Shown one piece after another: positions 184 through 5,949 of a DNA stretch of 5,949 bases. The notes below the pieces were generated by a model that was given only the letters and a program-made list of their open reading frames with translations, was not told where the DNA came from and ran no database searches. Source of the DNA: a virus (lineage: Duplodnaviria > Heunggongvirae > Uroviricota > Caudoviricetes); IMG/VR virus record IMGVR_UViG_3300028969_000052; one strand, 5' to 3'. A program made the translations under genes and the position numbers. Positions within the stretch are counted from its first letter, which is position 1, and every line of letters starts with the position of its first letter.

Positions 184-888
184 TTATCTAATATCGCTTC
201 GGGAAGTTAATAACAACTTTAATTCTGACTCAAGTTCATCAACTCTTTCAGTCAGTTTCTGGATATGGTGAATCAGTGGAACAACCAGACGTTCGTACAT
301 TACACCTTCGGCAACAAGGCCATTGCTGGAAATAGCTTCAGGAGCATCATCTTCGTTAGCTGGTCGCCAGTGTACAAACTGAGGAGCAATTTCTCCTACT
401 TCCTCGGCAATCAATCCGTAGAATCCCCAGTCACGCCTGTCATTTTCGCATTGCGACCTGTACCACACAGGGCGCATCCTGAAAATGAGATCGGCGTGCT
501 CTGAATCTATTGTCTCTACTGAATGTTTATAGCGGATAGACGATGTTGACCGCAGTACAGACGAAATTGCAGGGTCAGGATTAAGATAAAGGTTTGCCGC
601 CGCTGTAGTCGTGGCCAAATTCCATAAATAAAACGCTTCACGACCTGTCAGTGGATAAAAATCTCCGCCATAACGACCACTTTCCAGATCGTTCACTTCC
701 ACTTTGTTTTTCAGCTTATTATCAACTTCAGTTTTTGTGTATCTGGAGCTGATATCCTGCTTTGCACTGGTCATATCAGTCTGAAGCGTTGATACTTTAC
801 TGTTAATTGAGGAAATATCTTCCTTCGCTTTACTGACATCTCCCTTCAGCGTGGTGATGTCTCCCGGAATTACTGTCGATGTAGCCAT
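184..888 (-). CDS. Tail-fibre-like protein (234 aa): N-terminal ~115 aa of coiled-coil/fibre-like sequence plus a C-terminal intramolecular chaperone auto-processing domain (Peptidase_S74 / endosialidase-chaperone type)
   Basis: ORF track 184..888. SD-like GAGGGAG 5-6 nt upstream of the ATG at 888-886. The C-terminal half (SSIRYKHSVETIDSEHADLIFRMRPVWYRSQ...GFYGLIAEEVGEIAPQFV...GVMYERLVVPLIHHIQKLTERVDELESEL) follows the conserved pattern I recall for the C-terminal intramolecular chaperone domain of endosialidase and phage tail fibres. Domain assignment is from memory, not a search. Confidence 0.7.
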   Translation of the reverse strand: MATSTVIPGDITTLKGDVSKAKEDISSINSKVSTLQTDMTSAKQDISSRYTKTEVDNKLKNKVEVNDLESGRYGGDFYPLTGREAFYLWNLATTTAAANLYLNPDPAISSVLRSTSSIRYKHSVETIDSEHADLIFRMRPVWYRSQCENDRRDWGFYGLIAEEVGEIAPQFVHWRPANEDDAPEAISSNGLVAEGVMYERLVVPLIHHIQKLTERVDELESELKLLLTSRSDIR

Positions 889-897
889 TTGTCTCCC

Positions 898-1179
898 TCA
901 CATCCAGCCACGAAGTTGATGTTCAACAACAACCGCGTATTCATCGAATATTGACGATTTTTTTGCATCATTAATGATGCGCACGTTTACAAAATATCCG
1001 TCTTCCTTAACACATACCGGTTCGCCATCTTCAGTCAGTTCTCCGGTTTCTTTGTACACGTTACCTATCACGTCAATAAGAATATCATCCTGCATCGACT
1101 CGTCATCATAATAGCCAGCACTCTTCATAAAGGCCGAAAAGTCGGCCTTGTCTGTGAATTTGATAATTAAATCTCGCAT
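898..1179 (-). CDS. Hypothetical acidic 93-aa protein, translationally coupled to the side tail fibre gene; possibly a fibre-specific chaperone or assembly factor (speculative)
   Basis: ORF track 898..1179. Its ATG (1179-1177) overlaps the stf stop codon (1181-1179) by one nucleotide (TAATG on the minus strand). Acidic composition, no recognisable similarity to lambda Tfa. AT-rich like the distal part of stf. Confidence 0.55.
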   Translation of the reverse strand: MRDLIIKFTDKADFSAFMKSAGYYDDESMQDDILIDVIGNVYKETGELTEDGEPVCVKEDGYFVNVRIINDAKKSSIFDEYAVVVEHQLRGWM

Positions 1180-3563
1180 TATATTATCTCTCCCATTTGC
1201 GCATCGGTTAATTCTTTATGCCATATTCTAAAATTCCTGATATAACCAAATAAATGACGTAAGCCGGCTGTAGTCTGGCCTCCAATCCTTATACCTGTAG
1301 CACCACTAACACTCTTCCACGTTGTTGATGCTGGTGTTGATAAAACCCCATTGCAGCCAGCCTGAAACTTGCCATCGCTTTTTATTCTATATACAGCGAT
1401 AATCTTTCTTGGGTAATTTCCAGGTGGAAATGATATTTGATTACCAAATTGAACATATGGAGTTCCTACACTACCTGCTGTATTTCTGAATGCAAAAACA
1501 AAAGCGTCGTCTTTTGTTTTAAATCCTGTTATATCATAAATTCTAGGCGCGGAATTTGGTGCTATAGACCAATTTTTATTCACTTCAACCATGCAGGTTA
1601 AAGGTTTGCTGGTCATGTTATTTTTACAAGGCAATGTAACAATATCGCTTGCTCGCGTTGATGCAACTGTATCGGAAATGATAAAAGATGATGCGCATGA
1701 GCCGCCTTCAAATTGTGGTGTCGTAACATCCAAATATTCCCCGCCCAAATAAGTTCCAGGTGAAACAGGTGGAGCAATTTGGATCTGAGAGCCAACCATA
1801 TTATCAATAGCTTCAGATTGATATGTAACCTCGAAATAAATCCATCCATTAGATTCTTTCTCCGCTCGGGCGGTTATTCTTGCAGCCCCTCCTCCCGTTT
1901 TTCTAATGGACATATCTGTTATATTAGGATATGCATCTGCCAGATAAAAATATGCGGACCCGTCATATCTTTCAAATCTTATACGACATTGTATATTAGC
2001 ACTATCGCTTTTTACACGACATGATGTTGTAACATACTTTTCAGTTCCAGTAACATCGACACCTCTTCCTCCTGAAACCGCAGCGATATTCATTGTCGTA
2101 TTTGTCCCAATTTTTTCGTCCTTTATTTGAAACCGCCCATAAGTAAAGCCAAACTCATCAACACCACTTTCTGTTATAGTTACACTTGTTGTAGCTCCCC
2201 ACTTAGATGGCGTAAGTGAATTAAGATGATAGTTGGTTCTTTGTCCTTCAATCAGCAAACCTTCTCGTTCAAATCGCGGTTCGTCAACTTCAGCAACGGT
2301 TAATACTCCTGATTTATTAATGTATGTTGCACCTGATGCGCGTTTGAAGCTAACAACCTTATCGGATGGCATTTTAATAACATCATCACCTACAGTTATT
2401 TGCTTATAACCAGGCGAAAAGCCAGCAAGCATATCCAGTGAATCGTTAAACGGTATCCACACATCGGGAAGCGGCTGCAAAACTTGTTTATACGGCTCCG
2501 CAGCCTGGCTTGCATACTCTCTGGCTGCGTCTTCACTTGCTTTTGCAGCCGTCTGGCTTGCAGCGGATGCTTTCGCCGAGTTAGCCGCCGCAGTCTCGCT
2601 CGCCTTTGCGTTGGTTTCACTGGTTTTTGCAGCTTTTTGACTGTTGGCTGATGCAGTGGCAGAAGAAGCCGCCGCACTTGCAGAACCAGCTGCGGCACTC
2701 TCGCTTTGGGCCGCTGCATCCTGACTGTTTTTCGCCGCAGTTTCGCTGGCTTTGGCATTCGTTTCGCTGGTCTTCGCTGCCGTCTGGCTGGACTTTGCGT
2801 TGGTTTCGCTCGTCTTCGCTGCTTTCTGGCTGTTAGCTGCAGCAGTTGCTGATCCAGCTGCTGAAGTCGCAGAACCGGCTGCAGCACTCTCGCTTTCGGC
2901 TGCTGCAGCCTGACTGCTTTTCGCCGCAGTTTCACTGGTTTTGGCATTCGTTTCGCTTGTTTTCGCTGCCGTCTGGCTGGACTTTGCGTTGGTTTCGCTC
3001 GTCTTTGCTGCTGTCTCGCTATTTTTCGCGTTGTTTTCTGATTTTTTAGCTGCTGTCGCGGAGTTTGCCGATGCAGTCTGCGAGGCCGCTGCCGCCTGTG
3101 CGCTGTTAGCTGCATTCGTTTCTGAGGTTTTCGCNNNNNNNNNNNNNNNNNNNNNNNCCGCTGCTGTTTCTGATTTCTTTGCTGCCGCTGCGCTCTGAGA
3201 GGCGGCTTCAGCGTTGTGTGCCGCTTCTTCCACCATTGCCTCAAAACGACGCAATGCCTCCGGCATGACATCATCTTCCGTCATGGCACCGAGAAAATCA
3301 TTCAGCGTACCTGGTCTGGAACCTTCATAGACGGTAATGGTTCCGGCATGTGAAGGCGGAAAACCTTCAACCAGCAGGATAACGCTATACTGGCCATACT
3401 CAACGTCCATGCTGTAACGCCCGGCTTCATCCGGATTTTCAGAGGCCACCGTGTTCACCAGTACAGTGGTGCTGTTACGCTTTGCCTTCAGTTGAATAGT
3501 GCAGTTCTGTATTGGTTTTCCCGCACCATCTTTCAGCACACCTGAGATTTTTACTGCTGCCAT
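1179..3563 (-). CDS. stf: Side tail fibre protein (lambda Stf-like N-terminus, repetitive Ala-rich shaft, distal domain ending in a probable ConA/LamG-like lectin fold); contains a 23-nt N-run
   Basis: ORF track 1179..3569 opens at a GTG that overlaps the SD. The likely true start is the ATG at 3563-3561 (GGAG, 5-nt spacer, ATG), giving MAAVKISGVLKDGAGKPIQNCTIQLKAKRNSTTV..., which matches the lambda Stf N-terminus as I recall it. The frame stays coherent across the N-run 3135-3157. The C-terminal motif GLRHLFGYIRNFRIWHKELTDAQMGEI resembles the end of LamG-type lectin domains (from memory). Confidence 0.85.
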   Translation of the reverse strand: MAAVKISGVLKDGAGKPIQNCTIQLKAKRNSTTVLVNTVASENPDEAGRYSMDVEYGQYSVILLVEGFPPSHAGTITVYEGSRPGTLNDFLGAMTEDDVMPEALRRFEAMVEEAAHNAEAASQSAAAAKKSETAAXXXXXXXXAKTSETNAANSAQAAAASQTASANSATAAKKSENNAKNSETAAKTSETNAKSSQTAAKTSETNAKTSETAAKSSQAAAAESESAAAGSATSAAGSATAAANSQKAAKTSETNAKSSQTAAKTSETNAKASETAAKNSQDAAAQSESAAAGSASAAASSATASANSQKAAKTSETNAKASETAAANSAKASAASQTAAKASEDAAREYASQAAEPYKQVLQPLPDVWIPFNDSLDMLAGFSPGYKQITVGDDVIKMPSDKVVSFKRASGATYINKSGVLTVAEVDEPRFEREGLLIEGQRTNYHLNSLTPSKWGATTSVTITESGVDEFGFTYGRFQIKDEKIGTNTTMNIAAVSGGRGVDVTGTEKYVTTSCRVKSDSANIQCRIRFERYDGSAYFYLADAYPNITDMSIRKTGGGAARITARAEKESNGWIYFEVTYQSEAIDNMVGSQIQIAPPVSPGTYLGGEYLDVTTPQFEGGSCASSFIISDTVASTRASDIVTLPCKNNMTSKPLTCMVEVNKNWSIAPNSAPRIYDITGFKTKDDAFVFAFRNTAGSVGTPYVQFGNQISFPPGNYPRKIIAVYRIKSDGKFQAGCNGVLSTPASTTWKSVSGATGIRIGGQTTAGLRHLFGYIRNFRIWHKELTDAQMGEII
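2637..3014. repeat. Two near-identical tandem direct repeats of ~189 bp (63 codons) inside the stf shaft, with nested ~42-bp (AKTSETNAKSSQTA-type) sub-repeats; the degenerate Ala/Ser/Thr/Lys repeat region extends over ~2500-3230
   Basis: Seen directly: the stretch ~2696-2820 is almost identical to ~2886-3010. The protein shows AKTSETNAKSSQTAAKTSETNAKTSETAAKSSQAAAAESESAAAGSATSAAGSATAAANSQKA followed by a near copy. Confidence 0.8.
3135..3157. other. Run of 23 N (assembly gap or masked bases) inside stf
   Basis: Literal N characters. The reading frame and the repeat pattern of stf are continuous on both sides. Confidence 0.95.
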
Positions 3564-3574
3564 ATCCACTCCAC

Positions 3575-3600
3575 AAAAAAGCCCGCCTGAACCGGCGGGC
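3575..3600 (-). terminator. Rho-independent terminator downstream of lom, directly abutting the stf ribosome-binding site
   Basis: Minus-strand RNA: GCCCGCC-GGUUCA-GGCGGGC followed by UUUUUU (perfect 7-bp GC stem, 6-nt loop, U6). The U-tract ends 2 nt before the stf SD. Confidence 0.7.
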
Positions 3601-3623
3601 TGTCATAACACTGTGTTACCTGG

Positions 3624-4217
3624 CTAATCAGAATTTATAACCGACANNNNNNNNNNNNNNNNNNNNNNNNNNNNNNNNNNNNNNNNNNNNNNNNNNNNNN
3701 NNNNNNNNNNNNNNNNNNNNAACTGCACGCCAGCCCCCCACGCCAGAGACGTGTTGCTGTGGCGACCGTCATCACTTCCGGTCAGCACATCGTGCGTATC
3801 CCCCTTGTTGTCGGTCACCTGAAGATAATCCCCGGAAAAAGTCGACACACGGCTGTAAGCCACACCCGCGATCGCATACGCGCTGAACCATTCATTCACG
3901 CGCACAGACGGCCCCGCCATCACGCTGAACCAGCGGTTACGCACTGAATCTTCATGCCAGCGGGTATCGCTGTAATGCGTTTTTTGCTCATCTTTGGCAT
4001 TGGCATAACTGAATGACGTCACCAGCCCCAGCGTGTCCGTAAATTCATAACGGTATTTCACGTTAATGCCCTTCAGGTCATCACTGCCTGGCATATCAGT
4101 ATGGGTCTGAAGATACCCGGCGCTTAGTGTGGACTGATGCTCTGCTGCGCTCGCTGGCGTACCAGCGGCAACCAGCCAGACTACTGCGGACAGAATAACA
4201 GCACATAATTTACGCAT
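3624..4217 (-). CDS. lom: Lom/Ail-family outer-membrane beta-barrel protein (lambda Lom homologue); interrupted by a 73-nt N-run near the 3' end
   Basis: ORF track 3624..4217. N-terminus MRKLCAVILSAV...AAGTPASA is signal-peptide-like, and EHQSTLSAGYL...GINVKYRYEFTDTLGLVTSFSY...WGAGVQ matches lambda Lom as I recall it. SD GAGAGG 6-7 nt upstream of the ATG at 4217. After the N-run the track frame ends ...SVINSD, but the adjacent frame ends ...VGYKF-stop, the typical aromatic C-terminus of this family, so the 3' coordinate is uncertain by a few nt. Confidence 0.85.
   Translation of the reverse strand: MRKLCAVILSAVVWLVAAGTPASAAEHQSTLSAGYLQTHTDMPGSDDLKGINVKYRYEFTDTLGLVTSFSYANAKDEQKTHYSDTRWHEDSVRNRWFSVMAGPSVRVNEWFSAYAIAGVAYSRVSTFSGDYLQVTDNKGDTHDVLTGSDDGRHSNTSLAWGAGVQXXXXXXXXXXXXXXXXXXXXXXXXXXSVINSD
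3648..3720. other. Run of ~73 N (assembly gap or masked bases) inside the lom 3' region
   Basis: Literal N characters. The frame relationship across the gap is not preserved relative to the expected Lom C-terminus. Confidence 0.95.
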
Positions 4218-4241
4218 AATTACCTCTCGCTTTTCTGCAAT

Positions 4242-4265
4242 AAAAAAGGCGTCATTTCTGGCGCC
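4242..4265 (-). terminator. Possible weak intrinsic terminator between J and lom
   Basis: Minus-strand RNA: GGCGCCA-GAAA-UGACGCC (7-bp stem with one C/A mismatch, GAAA loop) followed by UUUUUU. The imperfect stem lowers confidence. Confidence 0.35.
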
Positions 4266-4284
4266 CGTATCTGGGTTATAAAAT

Positions 4285-5949
4285 TCAGCTAATCGTGATG
4301 CCTGCAGTGGCTTTCTTCATCACCACAACCAGCAAATCGCTGATACTTGCTGTGGGATACCAGCCATTTACCAGCCATGCCGATACAGAAAATTCCAGTG
4401 TCATGACACCACTGCCTGCAGGCATATCAATAACACCCGTATATATCAGCGTATTATCCAGAGCCGTTCGGTTATAAATTTCAGCACCGTTTTTTCGTAC
4501 TATCAGACGGCATGAGGAGTAGATATCAGTATGATCTTGCTCATGTTTAGCGCCACTGAATGCCACCGCCGGGATAACAATTTGCCGGTCAAACGGCTGA
4601 TCGTCATAAACCCTGACGGTAATGGTTCCTGATGGCCACCGCTCCGGTGCACGGGAGTCCCGGGGGAAAGCTTTGCCCACTGTTTTAACGAGATCACCTT
4701 CAATCTGGTTGGCGGACAGTTTTCCCAGAACCCGACAGTTCTCGTTAATCGTGACGTTGTTGAGCGTCCCGGAGTTCGCATTCACGTTACCGCTGATATC
4801 GGCATTTTTCGCCGTCAGCCGCCCGTCCGGTGTCAGGGAAAATGCCGGAGGATTACCGCCGCTGGTAATGGTGGGAGCCGTCAGATATTTCAGGAACACT
4901 TCATTCATGTATATCTGATCGCCCTGCCCAACAAACATCGGCTTTGTGTTGCCATTCGCAGGATTAATCATCGCAATCCTGTCTGCCGCCAGCAGCACCT
5001 GACTCTGCATGCCGTCAGGGGTGTTTTCAATACCGGCACCAATACCCGCGATATAAAGGCGTCCGTCCTGCATCTGCTGCAGCTTCACAGCCCACATGCT
5101 GTTCAGGTTATTATTTGTATCAACCTGAACCTTCTGTATCTGCTGGATCGCTGCACTCTGGTCTTCCAGTTTCTTATTGACGGTCTGCGTGATTTCATTA
5201 CTGACATCCGTGATGGACGTTCTGATTTCCGCCAGGTCAGGCGCAAGCTGACCGTTATCAATCTGCGTCCACAACTCCTGAGCCAGATGGGTTTTCCCTA
5301 TCTCTCCTTTGAAAAAATCCAGATAGCCGGATGCATCATCACTCGGCTGGCCAACAGCCTCCACGAATGCCGATTTGCCAACGGTGTTCACACTGCGGAT
5401 GTAAAAATAATAATCATGGCCCGGCTTGATATTGATACTGGCAGCTATCCAGTACAGCGCCGTGCCAAGATAGCGGGCTGTGGTTTCAACCTGCCTGATA
5501 TCCGCAATCCGCTTTTCCGAGAACCAGAACTCAAACTGTACCGTCGGATCATAAACCGCAAGATGCGGCGTGGCGGTGATCTGAAAATAGCCCGGAGTCA
5601 GCTCAATCCGCGACGGCGCTGACGGTGCGGCAATCCGGAACGATACCGACGCCGGATCGCCCTGCTGCCCCCACGCATTTACTGCCCGGACTGTCAGCGT
5701 GTAACGCCCCAGCGCCAGTTGCCTGAAGCGGTATGTGGTTTCCGTCGTCCGGGCTGTGCTGACAAGCCGCTCACTGCCGTCATCCGCTGCCACGGTCAGG
5801 CGAAGCATAAAGCTCACCCCCTTCACCACCTTCGGCGTGTCCCATCGCGCCAGTACCTGATATTCCCCGCTGTCTGCGGTGACTTCGGCAGTCAGGTGCT
5901 GCACTGCTGGCGGCGTGACACCATTCACCGTGCCGCTCTGGTCACCGTC
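4285..5949 (-). CDS. J: Host-specificity protein J (central tail fibre / tip attachment protein), C-terminal ~555 codons; the 5' end lies beyond the window
   Basis: The ORF is open to the window edge. The M at 5928 in the track is an internal GTG and upstream codons read DGDQSGT without a stop. [33 protein letters not shown]...[22 protein letters not shown]...[21 protein letters not shown]...[20 protein letters not shown] matches lambda J as I recall it; the last ~150 aa diverge. Confidence 0.9.

What the first reader, a model, noticed from the sequence alone, without database searches (positions are those of the whole stretch)
2500..3230. Hierarchical tandem repeats in the fibre shaft, a likely hotspot for length variation and assembly problems
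Two ~189-bp copies are nearly identical at the DNA level, with nested ~42-bp sub-repeats, so unequal recombination or slippage can readily add or remove shaft units. The same repetitiveness probably explains the nearby N-run (collapsed or unresolved assembly) and generates the long spurious overlapping ORFs.
Basis: seen in the sequence. Interest (0 to 1): 0.45.

Follow-up and report, generated by a model that had tools for sequence, protein, structure and literature searches.

The report
Coiled-coil shaft repeats of prophage tail fibre
The repeats are real but ordinary: they encode the heptad-based coiled-coil shaft of a lambda-type prophage side tail fibre, an old duplication that only occasionally gains or loses units, and they do not explain the runs of N.

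Summary
Window 2496-3260 (minus strand) encodes about 36 uninterrupted heptads, the proximal coiled-coil shaft of a lambda-type side tail fibre (Stf) in a Qin-like E. coli prophage (J-lom-stf order). The hierarchy is real: 21-nt heptads, 42-nt double heptads and two 189-nt (63-aa) units, A at 2823-3011 and B at 2634-2822. The units are 86% identical, not "nearly identical". Most differences are synonymous, and the longest exact repeat is 44 nt.

The duplication is old. Across 104 relatives, units A and B are each conserved by position. Of 120 related protein clusters, 110 keep the same shaft length, as do 23 of 24 sampled complete genomes and 10 of 11 isolated phages. Rare variants exist, always in whole heptads: one unit (phage IdasGreatGrand, strain FFFEB2), three units (draft or metagenome assemblies only), or one heptad fewer. 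"Hotspot" is therefore overstated, though in-register unit gain and loss does occur.

The N-run (3135-3157) lies outside the 189-nt array. Its length is wrong (23 N against 17 nt in all relatives), and a second N-run sits in non-repetitive lom. The overlapping ORFs are spurious. They arise from codon composition (T at codon position 2 in 2 of 241 codons). RefSeq nevertheless annotates some of them in relatives.

The parts
1179..3563 (-). stf, side tail fibre gene (794 codons as written, including the N-run; 792 aa in relatives). ATG at 3563; an in-frame GTG lies at 3569.
   Evidence: ORF. PF08400 phage_tail_N E=3e-66. phrog_1419 'tail protein' matched end to end, 793/793, E=0. 98.9% identical intact ORFs in complete genomes. 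Annotated 'side tail fiber protein Stf' in phage PhiR46_1.
3279..3563 (-). N-terminal collar domain (aa 1-95) that attaches the fibre to the tail tip.
   Evidence: phmmer hit to PDB 9e7m (Ur-lambda Stf residues 1-94), E=1.4e-49. Foldseek top hit is 9e7m. Role as collar taken from PMC12617516.
2496..3260 (-). Heptad shaft (aa 102-356), about 36 uninterrupted heptads of pattern x-S-x-x-A-A-x. This is the proximal coiled-coil domain and is the object of the finding.
   Evidence: Heptad register: Ser at position 2 in 32/35 heptads, Ala at position 6 in 32/35. 59% identity to lambda orf-401 across the shaft, with one 14-aa gap. Lambda residues 102-393 are described as a trimeric coiled coil. AF2 monomer gives helix 100-230 and 246-352 at low confidence.
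2823..3011 (-). 189-nt / 63-aa unit A (aa 185-247; nine heptads).
   Evidence: Orthologous A units in relatives are 172-189/189 identical.
2634..2822 (-). 189-nt / 63-aa unit B (aa 248-310).
   Evidence: 163/189 nt and 55/63 aa identical to unit A; 17 of 26 differences fall at codon position 3; orthologous B units are 179-187/189 identical.
2592..2633 (-). Two-heptad partial third copy (AAKTSETNAKASET) that accounts for TRF's '2.3 copies'.
   Evidence: B against the next segment: 16 and 17 of 21 identical in the first two heptads, then decaying..
3135..3157 (.). Run of 23 N inside the shaft but outside the 189-nt array. Relatives have 17 nt here, encoding ASSKNA.
   Evidence: Every aligned relative spans 6 nt less than the window. 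With 17 nt the heptad register is continuous; with 23 it would be broken by two residues.
1179..2495 (-). Distal, presumably receptor-binding, part of Stf. Low G+C, with a GTA-head-spike-fibre-like domain and a ConA/LamG-like C-terminus.
   Evidence: NF048003 E=1.5e-13. PF13385 Laminin_G_3 below its cut-off. Weak lectin/CBM fold matches from a low-confidence model. G+C 39% against 57% in the shaft.
2396..3274 (-). 292-aa ORF in the +1 frame of stf. Judged spurious.
   Evidence: No stop is possible there because T occupies codon position 2 in only 2 of 241 shaft codons. Orthologue comparison: 96% aa identity in the Stf frame against 89% in this frame, with 23 of 33 substitutions at Stf codon position 3.
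2606..3198 (+). Three antisense ORFs (2606-2836, 2846-3049, 2941-3198). Judged spurious.
   Evidence: Antisense frames carry only 4-6 stops per 249 codons in the shaft, against 17-34 per 429 codons in the distal domain. Equivalents are annotated 'hypothetical protein' in RefSeq relatives. Lambda's orf206b is the same kind of object.
3628..4217 (-). lom (Ail/Lom outer-membrane protein), interrupted by a run of 74 N at 3647-3720.
   Evidence: PF06316 E=2e-104. All 15 best complete-genome matches have 84 nt where the window has 74 N. With 74 N the reading frame to the normal ...VGYKF stop at 3628-3630 is lost (read).
3580..3601 (-). Terminator-like hairpin followed by a T-run, between lom and stf.
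   Evidence: 8 pairs, 7 of them G-C. It is a consensus match only; one site found against 0.9 expected by chance.
4285..5949 (-). 3' part of J (central tail fibre / tip attachment protein). Runs off the window.
   Evidence: Pfam Ig_J, Ig_J_second, Phage_Tail_Tip and Ig_GpJ_C.
898..1179 (-). 93-aa gene that always follows this stf type. Function unknown.
   Evidence: phrog_1361, E=9e-45. Same position in phages and prophages.
184..888 (-). 234-aa tail-fibre-domain protein with a C-terminal S74 intramolecular-chaperone domain.
   Evidence: PF13884 E=4e-6. Matches the C-terminal end of phrog_3299.

Best explanation
Window 2496-3260 is the coding sequence, on the minus strand, for the proximal alpha-helical coiled-coil shaft of a lambda-type side tail fibre (Stf). 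The fibre belongs to a Qin-like lambdoid prophage of E. coli.

The DNA hierarchy mirrors the protein. One heptad (x-S-x-x-A-A-x, small Ser/Ala residues at the core positions) is 21 nt. An alternating pair of heptads (AAKTSET/NAKSSQT) is 42 nt. A nine-heptad block, five charged heptads followed by four Ala/Ser/Gly heptads, is 189 nt and is present twice.

The block duplication is ancient relative to the divergence of this fibre family. It is maintained under purifying selection in the Stf frame.

Because any in-register exchange keeps both the reading frame and the heptad phase, rare unequal homologous recombination between the 86%-identical units, or between different stf alleles in one cell, can remove or add one 63-aa block. 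Small slippage events can do the same for single heptads. By inference from the standard coiled-coil rise of about 0.148 nm per residue (my own knowledge), one block changes shaft length by about 9 nm.

Shown here: the repeat anatomy, homology to lambda Stf, the length spectrum among relatives, and the existence of a viable one-unit phage.

Inferred: trimeric coiled-coil geometry (by homology to Ur-lambda), the recombination mechanism, and any functional effect of shaft length.
For: Identity of the gene: PF08400; PDB 9e7m, E=1.4e-49; phrog_1419 matched end to end; J-lom-stf gene order.

Shaft: an uninterrupted heptad register with Ser at position 2 in 32/35 and Ala at position 6 in 32/35 heptads, and the same pattern in lambda. 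59% identity to lambda orf-401 through the shaft, with a gap of exactly two heptads. Lambda residues 102-393 are described as a proximal trimeric coiled coil (PMC12617516). A similar heptad stretch in DpK2 lies in the part of that protein described as an extended triple-helical bundle (PMC8552709). AF2 predicts all-helix.

Repeats.

Old duplication: 15 synonymous against 8 non-synonymous codon differences between the units. Positional orthology: A-A 61/63, B-B 61/63 and A-B 57/63 aa, and the same picture at the DNA level.

Length spectrum: shaft lengths of 133, 231, 238 and 301 aa, all multiples of 7. One-unit chimeric A/B block in phage IdasGreatGrand. One unit in complete genome FFFEB2, and minus one heptad in E2528-C1. 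Exact 63-aa deletion in P0145. Three units in L007, two of them 189/189 identical.

Feasibility of recombination on such substrates: lambda Red recombines 88%-identical stf segments whose longest perfect stretch is 49 bp at about 2e-6 (PMC3945230).
Against: The AF2 monomer model has low confidence (mean pLDDT 50) and folds the helix back on itself, so helicity is only weakly supported by my own computation. The oligomeric state was not tested.

The three-unit forms come only from draft or metagenome assemblies. None appeared among the 40 best complete-genome matches, so some could be assembly artefacts.

No experiment links shaft length to function. The recombination mechanism is inferred from products only.
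Confidence: 0.85

Rival explanations
1. One reading: the array is a hypervariable, VNTR-like hotspot whose unit number changes readily between closely related strains.
For: Variants with 1, 2 and 3 units, and variants lacking one heptad, exist. One three-unit allele has two 189/189-identical units, which points to a recent event. Patchy sharing of residues between A and B within some alleles hints at occasional gene conversion.
Against: 110 of 120 cluster representatives at 73-99% identity share one shaft length. So do 23 of 24 sampled complete genomes, all 30 best full-gene matches and 10 of 11 phages. The units are only 86% identical with a 44-nt longest exact match, and they are orthologous by position across lineages.
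Confidence: 0.1
2. The N-run at 3135-3157 marks a collapsed or unresolved copy of the tandem repeat, so real shaft units are missing from the window.
For: The N-run lies within the heptad region. Draft assemblies of relatives often end contigs inside units A/B: 5 of 11 contig-truncated proteins start at aa 218-254.
Against: All relatives, including complete genomes and isolated phages, align colinearly across the gap with 17 nt of ordinary sequence there. The gap is about 115 nt outside the 189-nt array. A second N-run of similarly inexact length (74 against 84 nt) sits in non-repetitive lom. E. coli genomes carry a median of 2-3 and up to 15 homologous stf/lom copies. Ambiguity between co-resident prophages, or deliberate masking, is therefore at least as likely. 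This last step is inference.
Confidence: 0.05
3. One of the long overlapping ORFs (the 292-aa +1-frame ORF or an antisense ORF) is a genuine overlapping gene.
For: RefSeq annotates equivalents in relatives: 'phage tail protein' WP_071819603.1, which is out of frame with stf, and two 'hypothetical proteins' on the opposite strand. Lambda carries the annotated antisense orf206b over the same shaft.
Against: The frames are open for compositional reasons: T at codon position 2 in 2 of 241 codons, and a strong A-over-T skew. Substitutions between orthologues fall at Stf codon position 3 (23 of 33), giving 96% aa identity in the Stf frame against 89% in the +1 frame. The best-conserved antisense frame contains 3-5 stops. 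The same relatives have an intact 792-aa stf ORF that the fragmented annotation ignores.
Confidence: 0.03
4. The Ala/Ser/Thr-rich region is a disordered low-complexity linker, not a structured shaft.
For: Low AF2 confidence. Extreme composition: Ala 37%, Ser 18%, Thr 11%.
Against: A strict heptad phase is maintained over about 250 residues and in every length variant, which a disordered linker would not require. The homologous lambda segment is seen as a rigid trimeric bundle by cryo-EM and cryo-ET.
Confidence: 0.04

Closest known systems
[quoted passage not shown]
   Same: The N-terminal collar domain is about 90% identical. The gene position after J and lom is the same. The x-S-x-x-x-A-x heptad pattern is the same, and the shaft aligns with a gap of exactly two heptads.
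   Different: In the lambda orf-401 sequence examined here, 401 residues up to lambda's frameshift, the shaft shows no obvious 63-aa block duplication. I did not run a repeat finder on it. The distal part differs: lambda has a hinge, a gp37-like distal domain and Tfa, whereas here there is a low-G+C GTA-spike-fibre / ConA-like module followed by a 93-aa gene of unknown function.
The same gene in E. coli B REL606 and other Qin-region prophages, and in isolated phages (PhiR46_1, ev207, 2G7b, Tritos, HannyBb); PHROG 1419
   Same: 91-99% DNA identity across the shaft, the same two-unit architecture and the same neighbouring genes.
   Different: Nothing of substance. The window differs by a few substitutions and the two N-runs.
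Klebsiella phage RAD2 depolymerase DpK2 (PDB 7LZJ), N-terminal extended triple-helical bundle
   Same: A stretch of the same KTSE(D/T)NAKSSENAAK-type heptads within a region the authors describe as a triple-helical bundle.
   Different: Short local similarity only (E=0.0014). The rest of the protein is a beta-helix enzyme. That N-terminal region was not modelled at high resolution.
Size-variable coiled-coil surface fibres built from repeat blocks, such as streptococcal M protein, and fibre shafts with variable repeat number, such as adenovirus fibre (from my own knowledge, not tested here)
   Same: In-frame, in-register repeat blocks whose gain or loss by intragenic recombination changes fibre length.
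   Different: Unrelated proteins. In M protein the size variation is frequent and immune-driven. Here the variation is rare and no selective agent is known.
Lambda orf206b, an annotated antisense ORF across the stf shaft
   Same: A long open frame on the opposite strand of the same compositionally biased shaft.
   Different: It is a different sequence. Neither it nor the window's ORFs has evidence of expression that I could find.

Membership tests
Lambda-type side tail fibre (Stf; Pfam PF08400 family) | N-terminal collar domain homologous to lambda gpStf residues 1-94 | tested here: met
   PF08400 E=3e-66, 222 bits against a cut-off of 26.6. PDB 9e7m E=1.4e-49. Foldseek top hit is 9e7m.
Lambda-type side tail fibre (Stf; Pfam PF08400 family) | Gene located downstream of J and lom in a lambdoid tail module | tested here: met
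   J domains and Ail_Lom lie immediately upstream on the same strand. The order is the same in relatives and phages.
Lambda-type side tail fibre (Stf; Pfam PF08400 family) | Proximal heptad coiled-coil shaft following the collar domain | tested here: met
   About 36 uninterrupted heptads. 59% identity to lambda orf-401 through the shaft.
Lambda-type side tail fibre (Stf; Pfam PF08400 family) | Lambda-like distal domain with a Tfa assembly chaperone gene downstream | tested here: not met
   No similarity to lambda beyond the shaft. The distal part matches GTA_spike_fiber and, weakly, Laminin_G_3. The downstream gene is a 93-aa protein of phrog_1361 with no Tfa match. The fibre is a mosaic: lambda-type proximal half, different distal module.
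Lambda-type side tail fibre (Stf; Pfam PF08400 family) | Assembles as a trimer on the virion and speeds adsorption | not testable with these tools
   Only monomer prediction was available. Near-identical genes occur in plaque-forming phages, which shows the gene travels in viable phages but not what it does.
Alpha-helical coiled coil | Sustained heptad periodicity with conserved residues at 3/4 spacing | tested here: met
   Ser at heptad position 2 (32/35) and Ala at position 6 (32/35). All natural length variants are multiples of 7. The core residues are small and polar, which is atypical of classical coiled coils.
Alpha-helical coiled coil | Helical secondary structure and defined oligomeric bundle | tested here: inconclusive
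   AF2 gives helix 100-230 and 246-352 but with pLDDT mostly below 50-60 and an artefactual hairpin. The bundle is known only for the lambda homologue.
Hypervariable tandem repeat (VNTR / contingency-type locus) | Near-identical units at the DNA level | tested here: not met
   Units are 86% identical and the longest exact repeat is 44 nt. In the close relative L001 the longest is 18 nt.
Hypervariable tandem repeat (VNTR / contingency-type locus) | Copy number differs frequently among close relatives | tested here: not met
   All 30 best full-gene matches have the same length, as do 23 of 24 sampled complete genomes and 110 of 120 cluster representatives. Variants exist but are rare. The samples are not a full census.

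The most novel reading that the evidence does not exclude
The 1-, 2- and 3-block shaft versions, differing in steps of 63 aa or roughly 9 nm, may be a functional length polymorphism. Such a polymorphism would tune how far the side fibre reaches through host surface layers such as O-antigen or capsule. It would be generated by in-register recombination between blocks or between co-resident stf alleles, and would not be neutral noise.
Probability: 0.15. Interest if true: 0.4.

Novelty: already known. Interest (0 to 1): 0.15.

Why it matters
The value is mostly practical. The region is a well-behaved structural repeat in a very common prophage gene, not a new element.

- The N-runs should not be read as collapsed repeats.
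- The long alternative-frame ORFs should not be annotated. RefSeq entries for close relatives, including E. coli B REL606, split an intact 792-aa stf into a pseudogene fragment, an out-of-frame 'phage tail protein', antisense 'hypothetical proteins' and a truncated C-terminal protein.
- The observation that all natural shaft lengths are whole heptads, with a 63-aa quantum, could guide engineering of Stf chimeras of defined length. It is not surprising to a phage structural biologist.

Tried and rejected
1. Looking for the source record with an exact 33-mer in genome contigs, viral contigs and metagenome contigs. There were no hits, so the origin of the N-runs could not be checked directly.

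2. Testing for concerted evolution of units A and B. Within-protein A-B identity (median 57/63) equals between-protein A-B identity (56.8). Orthologous A-A and B-B are 61/63. I rejected strong homogenisation.

3. AF2 monomer of the full protein. Mean pLDDT was 50, with a helix hairpin artefact. It is usable only for secondary structure. The Foldseek search on it recovered the lambda N-domain and otherwise only weak lectin-like matches.

4. Literature searches for a described VNTR or copy-number polymorphism in stf shafts found nothing specific. One hit containing 'heptad' was irrelevant.

5. Searching complete genomes for a three-unit shaft. None appeared in the 40 best rows. Several one-unit shafts turned up instead.

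6. I considered that the N-runs are exact-length masks. I rejected this because 23 against 17 nt would break the heptad phase and 74 against 84 nt breaks the lom frame.
Full report
**What the window is.** All genes lie on the minus strand. From right to left they are:
- the 3' part of J (4285-5949; Ig_J, Phage_Tail_Tip and Ig_GpJ_C domains);
- lom (3628-4217; Ail_Lom, E=2e-104);
- a 794-codon ORF at 1179-3563 with the Pfam 'prophage tail fibre N-terminal' domain (PF08400, E=3e-66);
- a 93-aa gene (898-1179);
- a 234-aa tail-fibre-domain gene with an S74 chaperone domain (184-888).

The closest complete genomes (98.9% identity over the fibre gene) place this module in the Qin prophage region, next to ydfJ, ydfK and pinQ. 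They include E. coli B REL606. The same module occurs in isolated temperate phages, where the gene is annotated 'side tail fiber protein Stf'. PHROG 1419 matches the protein end to end.

**Checking the observation.** Tandem Repeats Finder reports an array at 2586-3020 with period 189, 2.3 copies, 84% matches and score 611. It also reports nested period-42 and period-21 arrays. The repeat finder gives 81% for one register.

In the codon register the two units are A = 2823-3011 (aa 185-247) and B = 2634-2822 (aa 248-310). They share 163/189 nt (86%) and 55/63 aa. Of the 26 differences, 17 fall at third codon positions, and the longest exact direct repeat is 44 nt.

The duplication is far beyond what the underlying heptad repetition gives. 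The best in-register 189-nt identity is 160 (measured on the 99%-identical relative L001). Shuffles that preserve heptad order or heptad position give 111-114, sd about 4, maximum 125 in 300.

The hierarchy is therefore real, but 'nearly identical' is an overstatement. The N-run is 3135-3157 (23 N), about 115 nt outside the 189-nt array.

**What the repeats encode.** Translated, aa 102-356 (window 2496-3260) form about 36 heptads with no phase break. Serine occupies heptad position 2 in 32 of 35 heptads and alanine occupies position 6 in 32 of 35. The 42-nt period is the alternation AAKTSET/NAKSSQT. The 189-nt period is a nine-heptad block of five charged heptads followed by four Ala/Ser/Gly heptads.

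The protein aligns with lambda orf-401, the N-terminal part of Stf, at 59% identity over 341 residues. The alignment includes the shaft and has one gap of exactly 14 residues. Lambda's shaft shows the same Ser/Ala heptad positions.

The N-terminal 94 residues match the solved Ur-lambda Stf collar domain (PDB 9e7m, E=1.4e-49). The Ur-lambda cryo-EM study describes residues 102-393 as a proximal trimeric coiled coil joined to three collar domains by short linkers (PMC12617516). A short stretch of the same heptads occurs in Klebsiella phage depolymerase DpK2, in the part of the protein whose authors describe an extended triple-helical bundle (PMC8552709).

My own AF2 monomer model is of low confidence (mean pLDDT 50) but is helical over 100-230 and 246-352. 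The fold-back in that model resembles the artefact the Ur-lambda authors report for full-length predictions.

I conclude that the region is the coiled-coil shaft of a side tail fibre. Trimer geometry is inferred by homology and was not shown here.

**Is it a hotspot for length variation?** Among the 120 best cluster representatives (90% clusters; 65-99% identity to the query), the distance between a conserved anchor before the shaft and one after it takes four values:

| Shaft length (aa) | Representatives |
|---|---|
| 238 | 110 |
| 231 | 3 |
| 133 | 2 |
| 301 | 5 |

All four are multiples of seven.

Inspection of the variants shows the following:
- +63 aa corresponds to a third block.
- -7 aa corresponds to single-heptad deletions at different places.
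- Of the two -105-aa proteins, one is a 15-heptad deletion and the other carries a different shaft sequence.
- P0145 lacks exactly residues 183-245, one block.
- The isolated phage IdasGreatGrand has a single chimeric A/B block (731 aa).
- The complete genome FFFEB2 has one block, and the complete genome E2528-C1 lacks one heptad.
- A three-block allele in a 580-kb draft contig has two blocks that are 189/189 identical, which points to a recent tandem duplication.
- Another three-block allele, from a metagenome contig, has blocks that resemble the A units of two different lineages. This suggests an unequal exchange between alleles, or possibly a chimeric assembly.

Against a 'hotspot':
- All 30 best full-gene matches in complete genomes have the same length.
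- 23 of 24 near-full matches in an evenly spaced sample of complete genomes have the same length.
- 10 of 11 phages have the same length.
- No three-block shaft appeared among the 40 best complete-genome matches to a three-block query.
- Units A and B are orthologous by position. A-A and B-B identities between proteins average 61/63, while A-B is 57/63 both within and between proteins. DNA comparisons agree.

The duplication therefore predates the diversification of this fibre family and shows no strong homogenisation.

Unit gain and loss does happen and always preserves both frame and heptad phase, but it is rare. A plausible mechanism is relaxed homologous recombination. Lambda Red is reported to recombine 88%-identical stf segments, with a longest perfect match of 49 bp, at about 2e-6 (PMC3945230). 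That substrate is comparable to these units. This step is inference.

**The N-runs.** Every relative aligned across 3135-3157 has 17 nt there, encoding ASSKNA. Every alignment spans 6 nt less than the window. With 17 nt the heptad phase is continuous, whereas 23 nt would insert two residues and break it.

The second N-run (3647-3720, 74 N) is in lom, which has no tandem repeats. All 15 best complete-genome matches have 84 nt there, and 74 nt destroys the frame leading to the normal lom stop. The N lengths are therefore not true sequence lengths, and the tandem repeat cannot explain the lom gap.

E. coli genomes carry a median of 2-3 and up to 15 homologous stf/lom segments. Ambiguity between co-resident prophages, or masking of the record, is thus at least as likely a cause. 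This could not be verified because the source record was not found in any collection.

**The overlapping ORFs.** The shaft is 37% Ala, 18% Ser, 11% Thr and 9% each Glu and Lys. T occupies codon position 2 in only 2 of 241 codons, so the +1 frame cannot contain a stop. This produces the 292-aa ORF at 2396-3274. Antisense frames have only 4-6 stops per 249 codons, against 17-34 per 429 codons in the distal domain. The plus strand shows a matching AT skew of -0.55 to -0.65.

Between orthologues, 23 of 33 substitutions are at Stf codon position 3. Amino-acid identity is 96% in the Stf frame and 89% in the +1 frame. The ORFs are therefore by-products of composition.

They nevertheless mislead annotation. 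In REL606, EcPF14 and many other RefSeq genomes the intact 792-aa ORF is split into five pieces:
- an N-terminal pseudogene;
- an out-of-frame 'phage tail protein';
- two antisense 'hypothetical proteins';
- a truncated 'phage head spike fiber domain' protein.

Lambda's orf206b is the same kind of object.

**Comparison with what is known, and verdict.** The proximal half of the protein passes the membership tests for lambda-type Stf: collar domain, gene position and heptad shaft. The distal half does not resemble lambda's. It is a low-G+C module (39% against 57%) with a GTA-spike-fibre-like domain and a ConA/LamG-like end. It is followed by a 93-aa gene of unknown function and not by tfa.

As a tandem repeat, the region fails the defining features of a hypervariable VNTR. 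The feature is ordinary and, in kind, already known. Interest is low.

The one mildly new point is the quantised length spectrum: whole heptads only, with a 63-aa block present once, twice or three times. Whether it has any functional meaning is untested.

Noticed in passing
L002 (E. coli B REL606, NC_012967.1) 3501-5885; L001 (EcPF14) 3501-5885: RefSeq/PGAP splits an intact 792-aa stf ORF into five pieces: an N-terminal pseudogene, an out-of-frame 'phage tail protein' (WP_071819603.1), antisense 'hypothetical proteins' (WP_000896277.1, WP_077880430.1) and a truncated C-terminal protein. Other genomes with near-identical sequence get a single full-length CDS.
   Followed up: yes
window 3647-3720: A second run of 74 N lies inside lom. 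All 15 best relatives have 84 nt there, so the N length is inexact and, as written, it breaks the lom reading frame.
   Followed up: yes
window 1179-2495 against 2496-3563: There is a sharp G+C step at the boundary between shaft and distal domain: about 39% in the distal domain and downstream genes against 50-57% in the shaft, N-domain and J. This suggests the receptor-binding module was acquired by mosaic exchange. The junction motif PLPDVWIPFNDS is invariant among relatives.
   Followed up: partly
window 898-1179 and 184-888: In place of a tfa chaperone gene, stf is followed by a conserved 93-aa gene (phrog_1361, unknown function) whose start overlaps the stf stop. After that comes a 234-aa protein that looks like the C-terminal end of a much larger fibre (phrog_3299 positions 1147-1383 of 1385) with an S74 intramolecular-chaperone domain. 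In some relatives this second gene is 346 aa. How a fibre tip without an anchor domain is used is unclear.
   Followed up: no
window 3580-3601 (minus strand): A G+C-rich hairpin with a T-run lies between the lom stop and the stf ribosome-binding site. It resembles an intrinsic terminator immediately upstream of stf. It is a consensus match only, at about the chance expectation.
   Followed up: partly
L006 (lambda NC_001416) 1248-1868, minus strand: Lambda's reference annotation carries orf206b antisense to the stf shaft. It is probably the same kind of composition-driven open frame as the window's plus-strand ORFs.
   Followed up: partly
L008 (metagenome contig ERZ27240642 k141_24085) 1501-4095: This three-block stf has a first block closest to the A unit of one lineage (184/189 to the L007 A unit) and a second block closest to the window's A unit (184/189). 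That pattern is expected from unequal exchange between two different stf alleles, but a chimeric metagenome assembly is not excluded.
   Followed up: partly
L002 (REL606) 6610-9141: In E. coli B the upstream J gene is truncated by an IS3 insertion, so that copy of the prophage tail module is defective although its stf ORF is intact.
   Followed up: no
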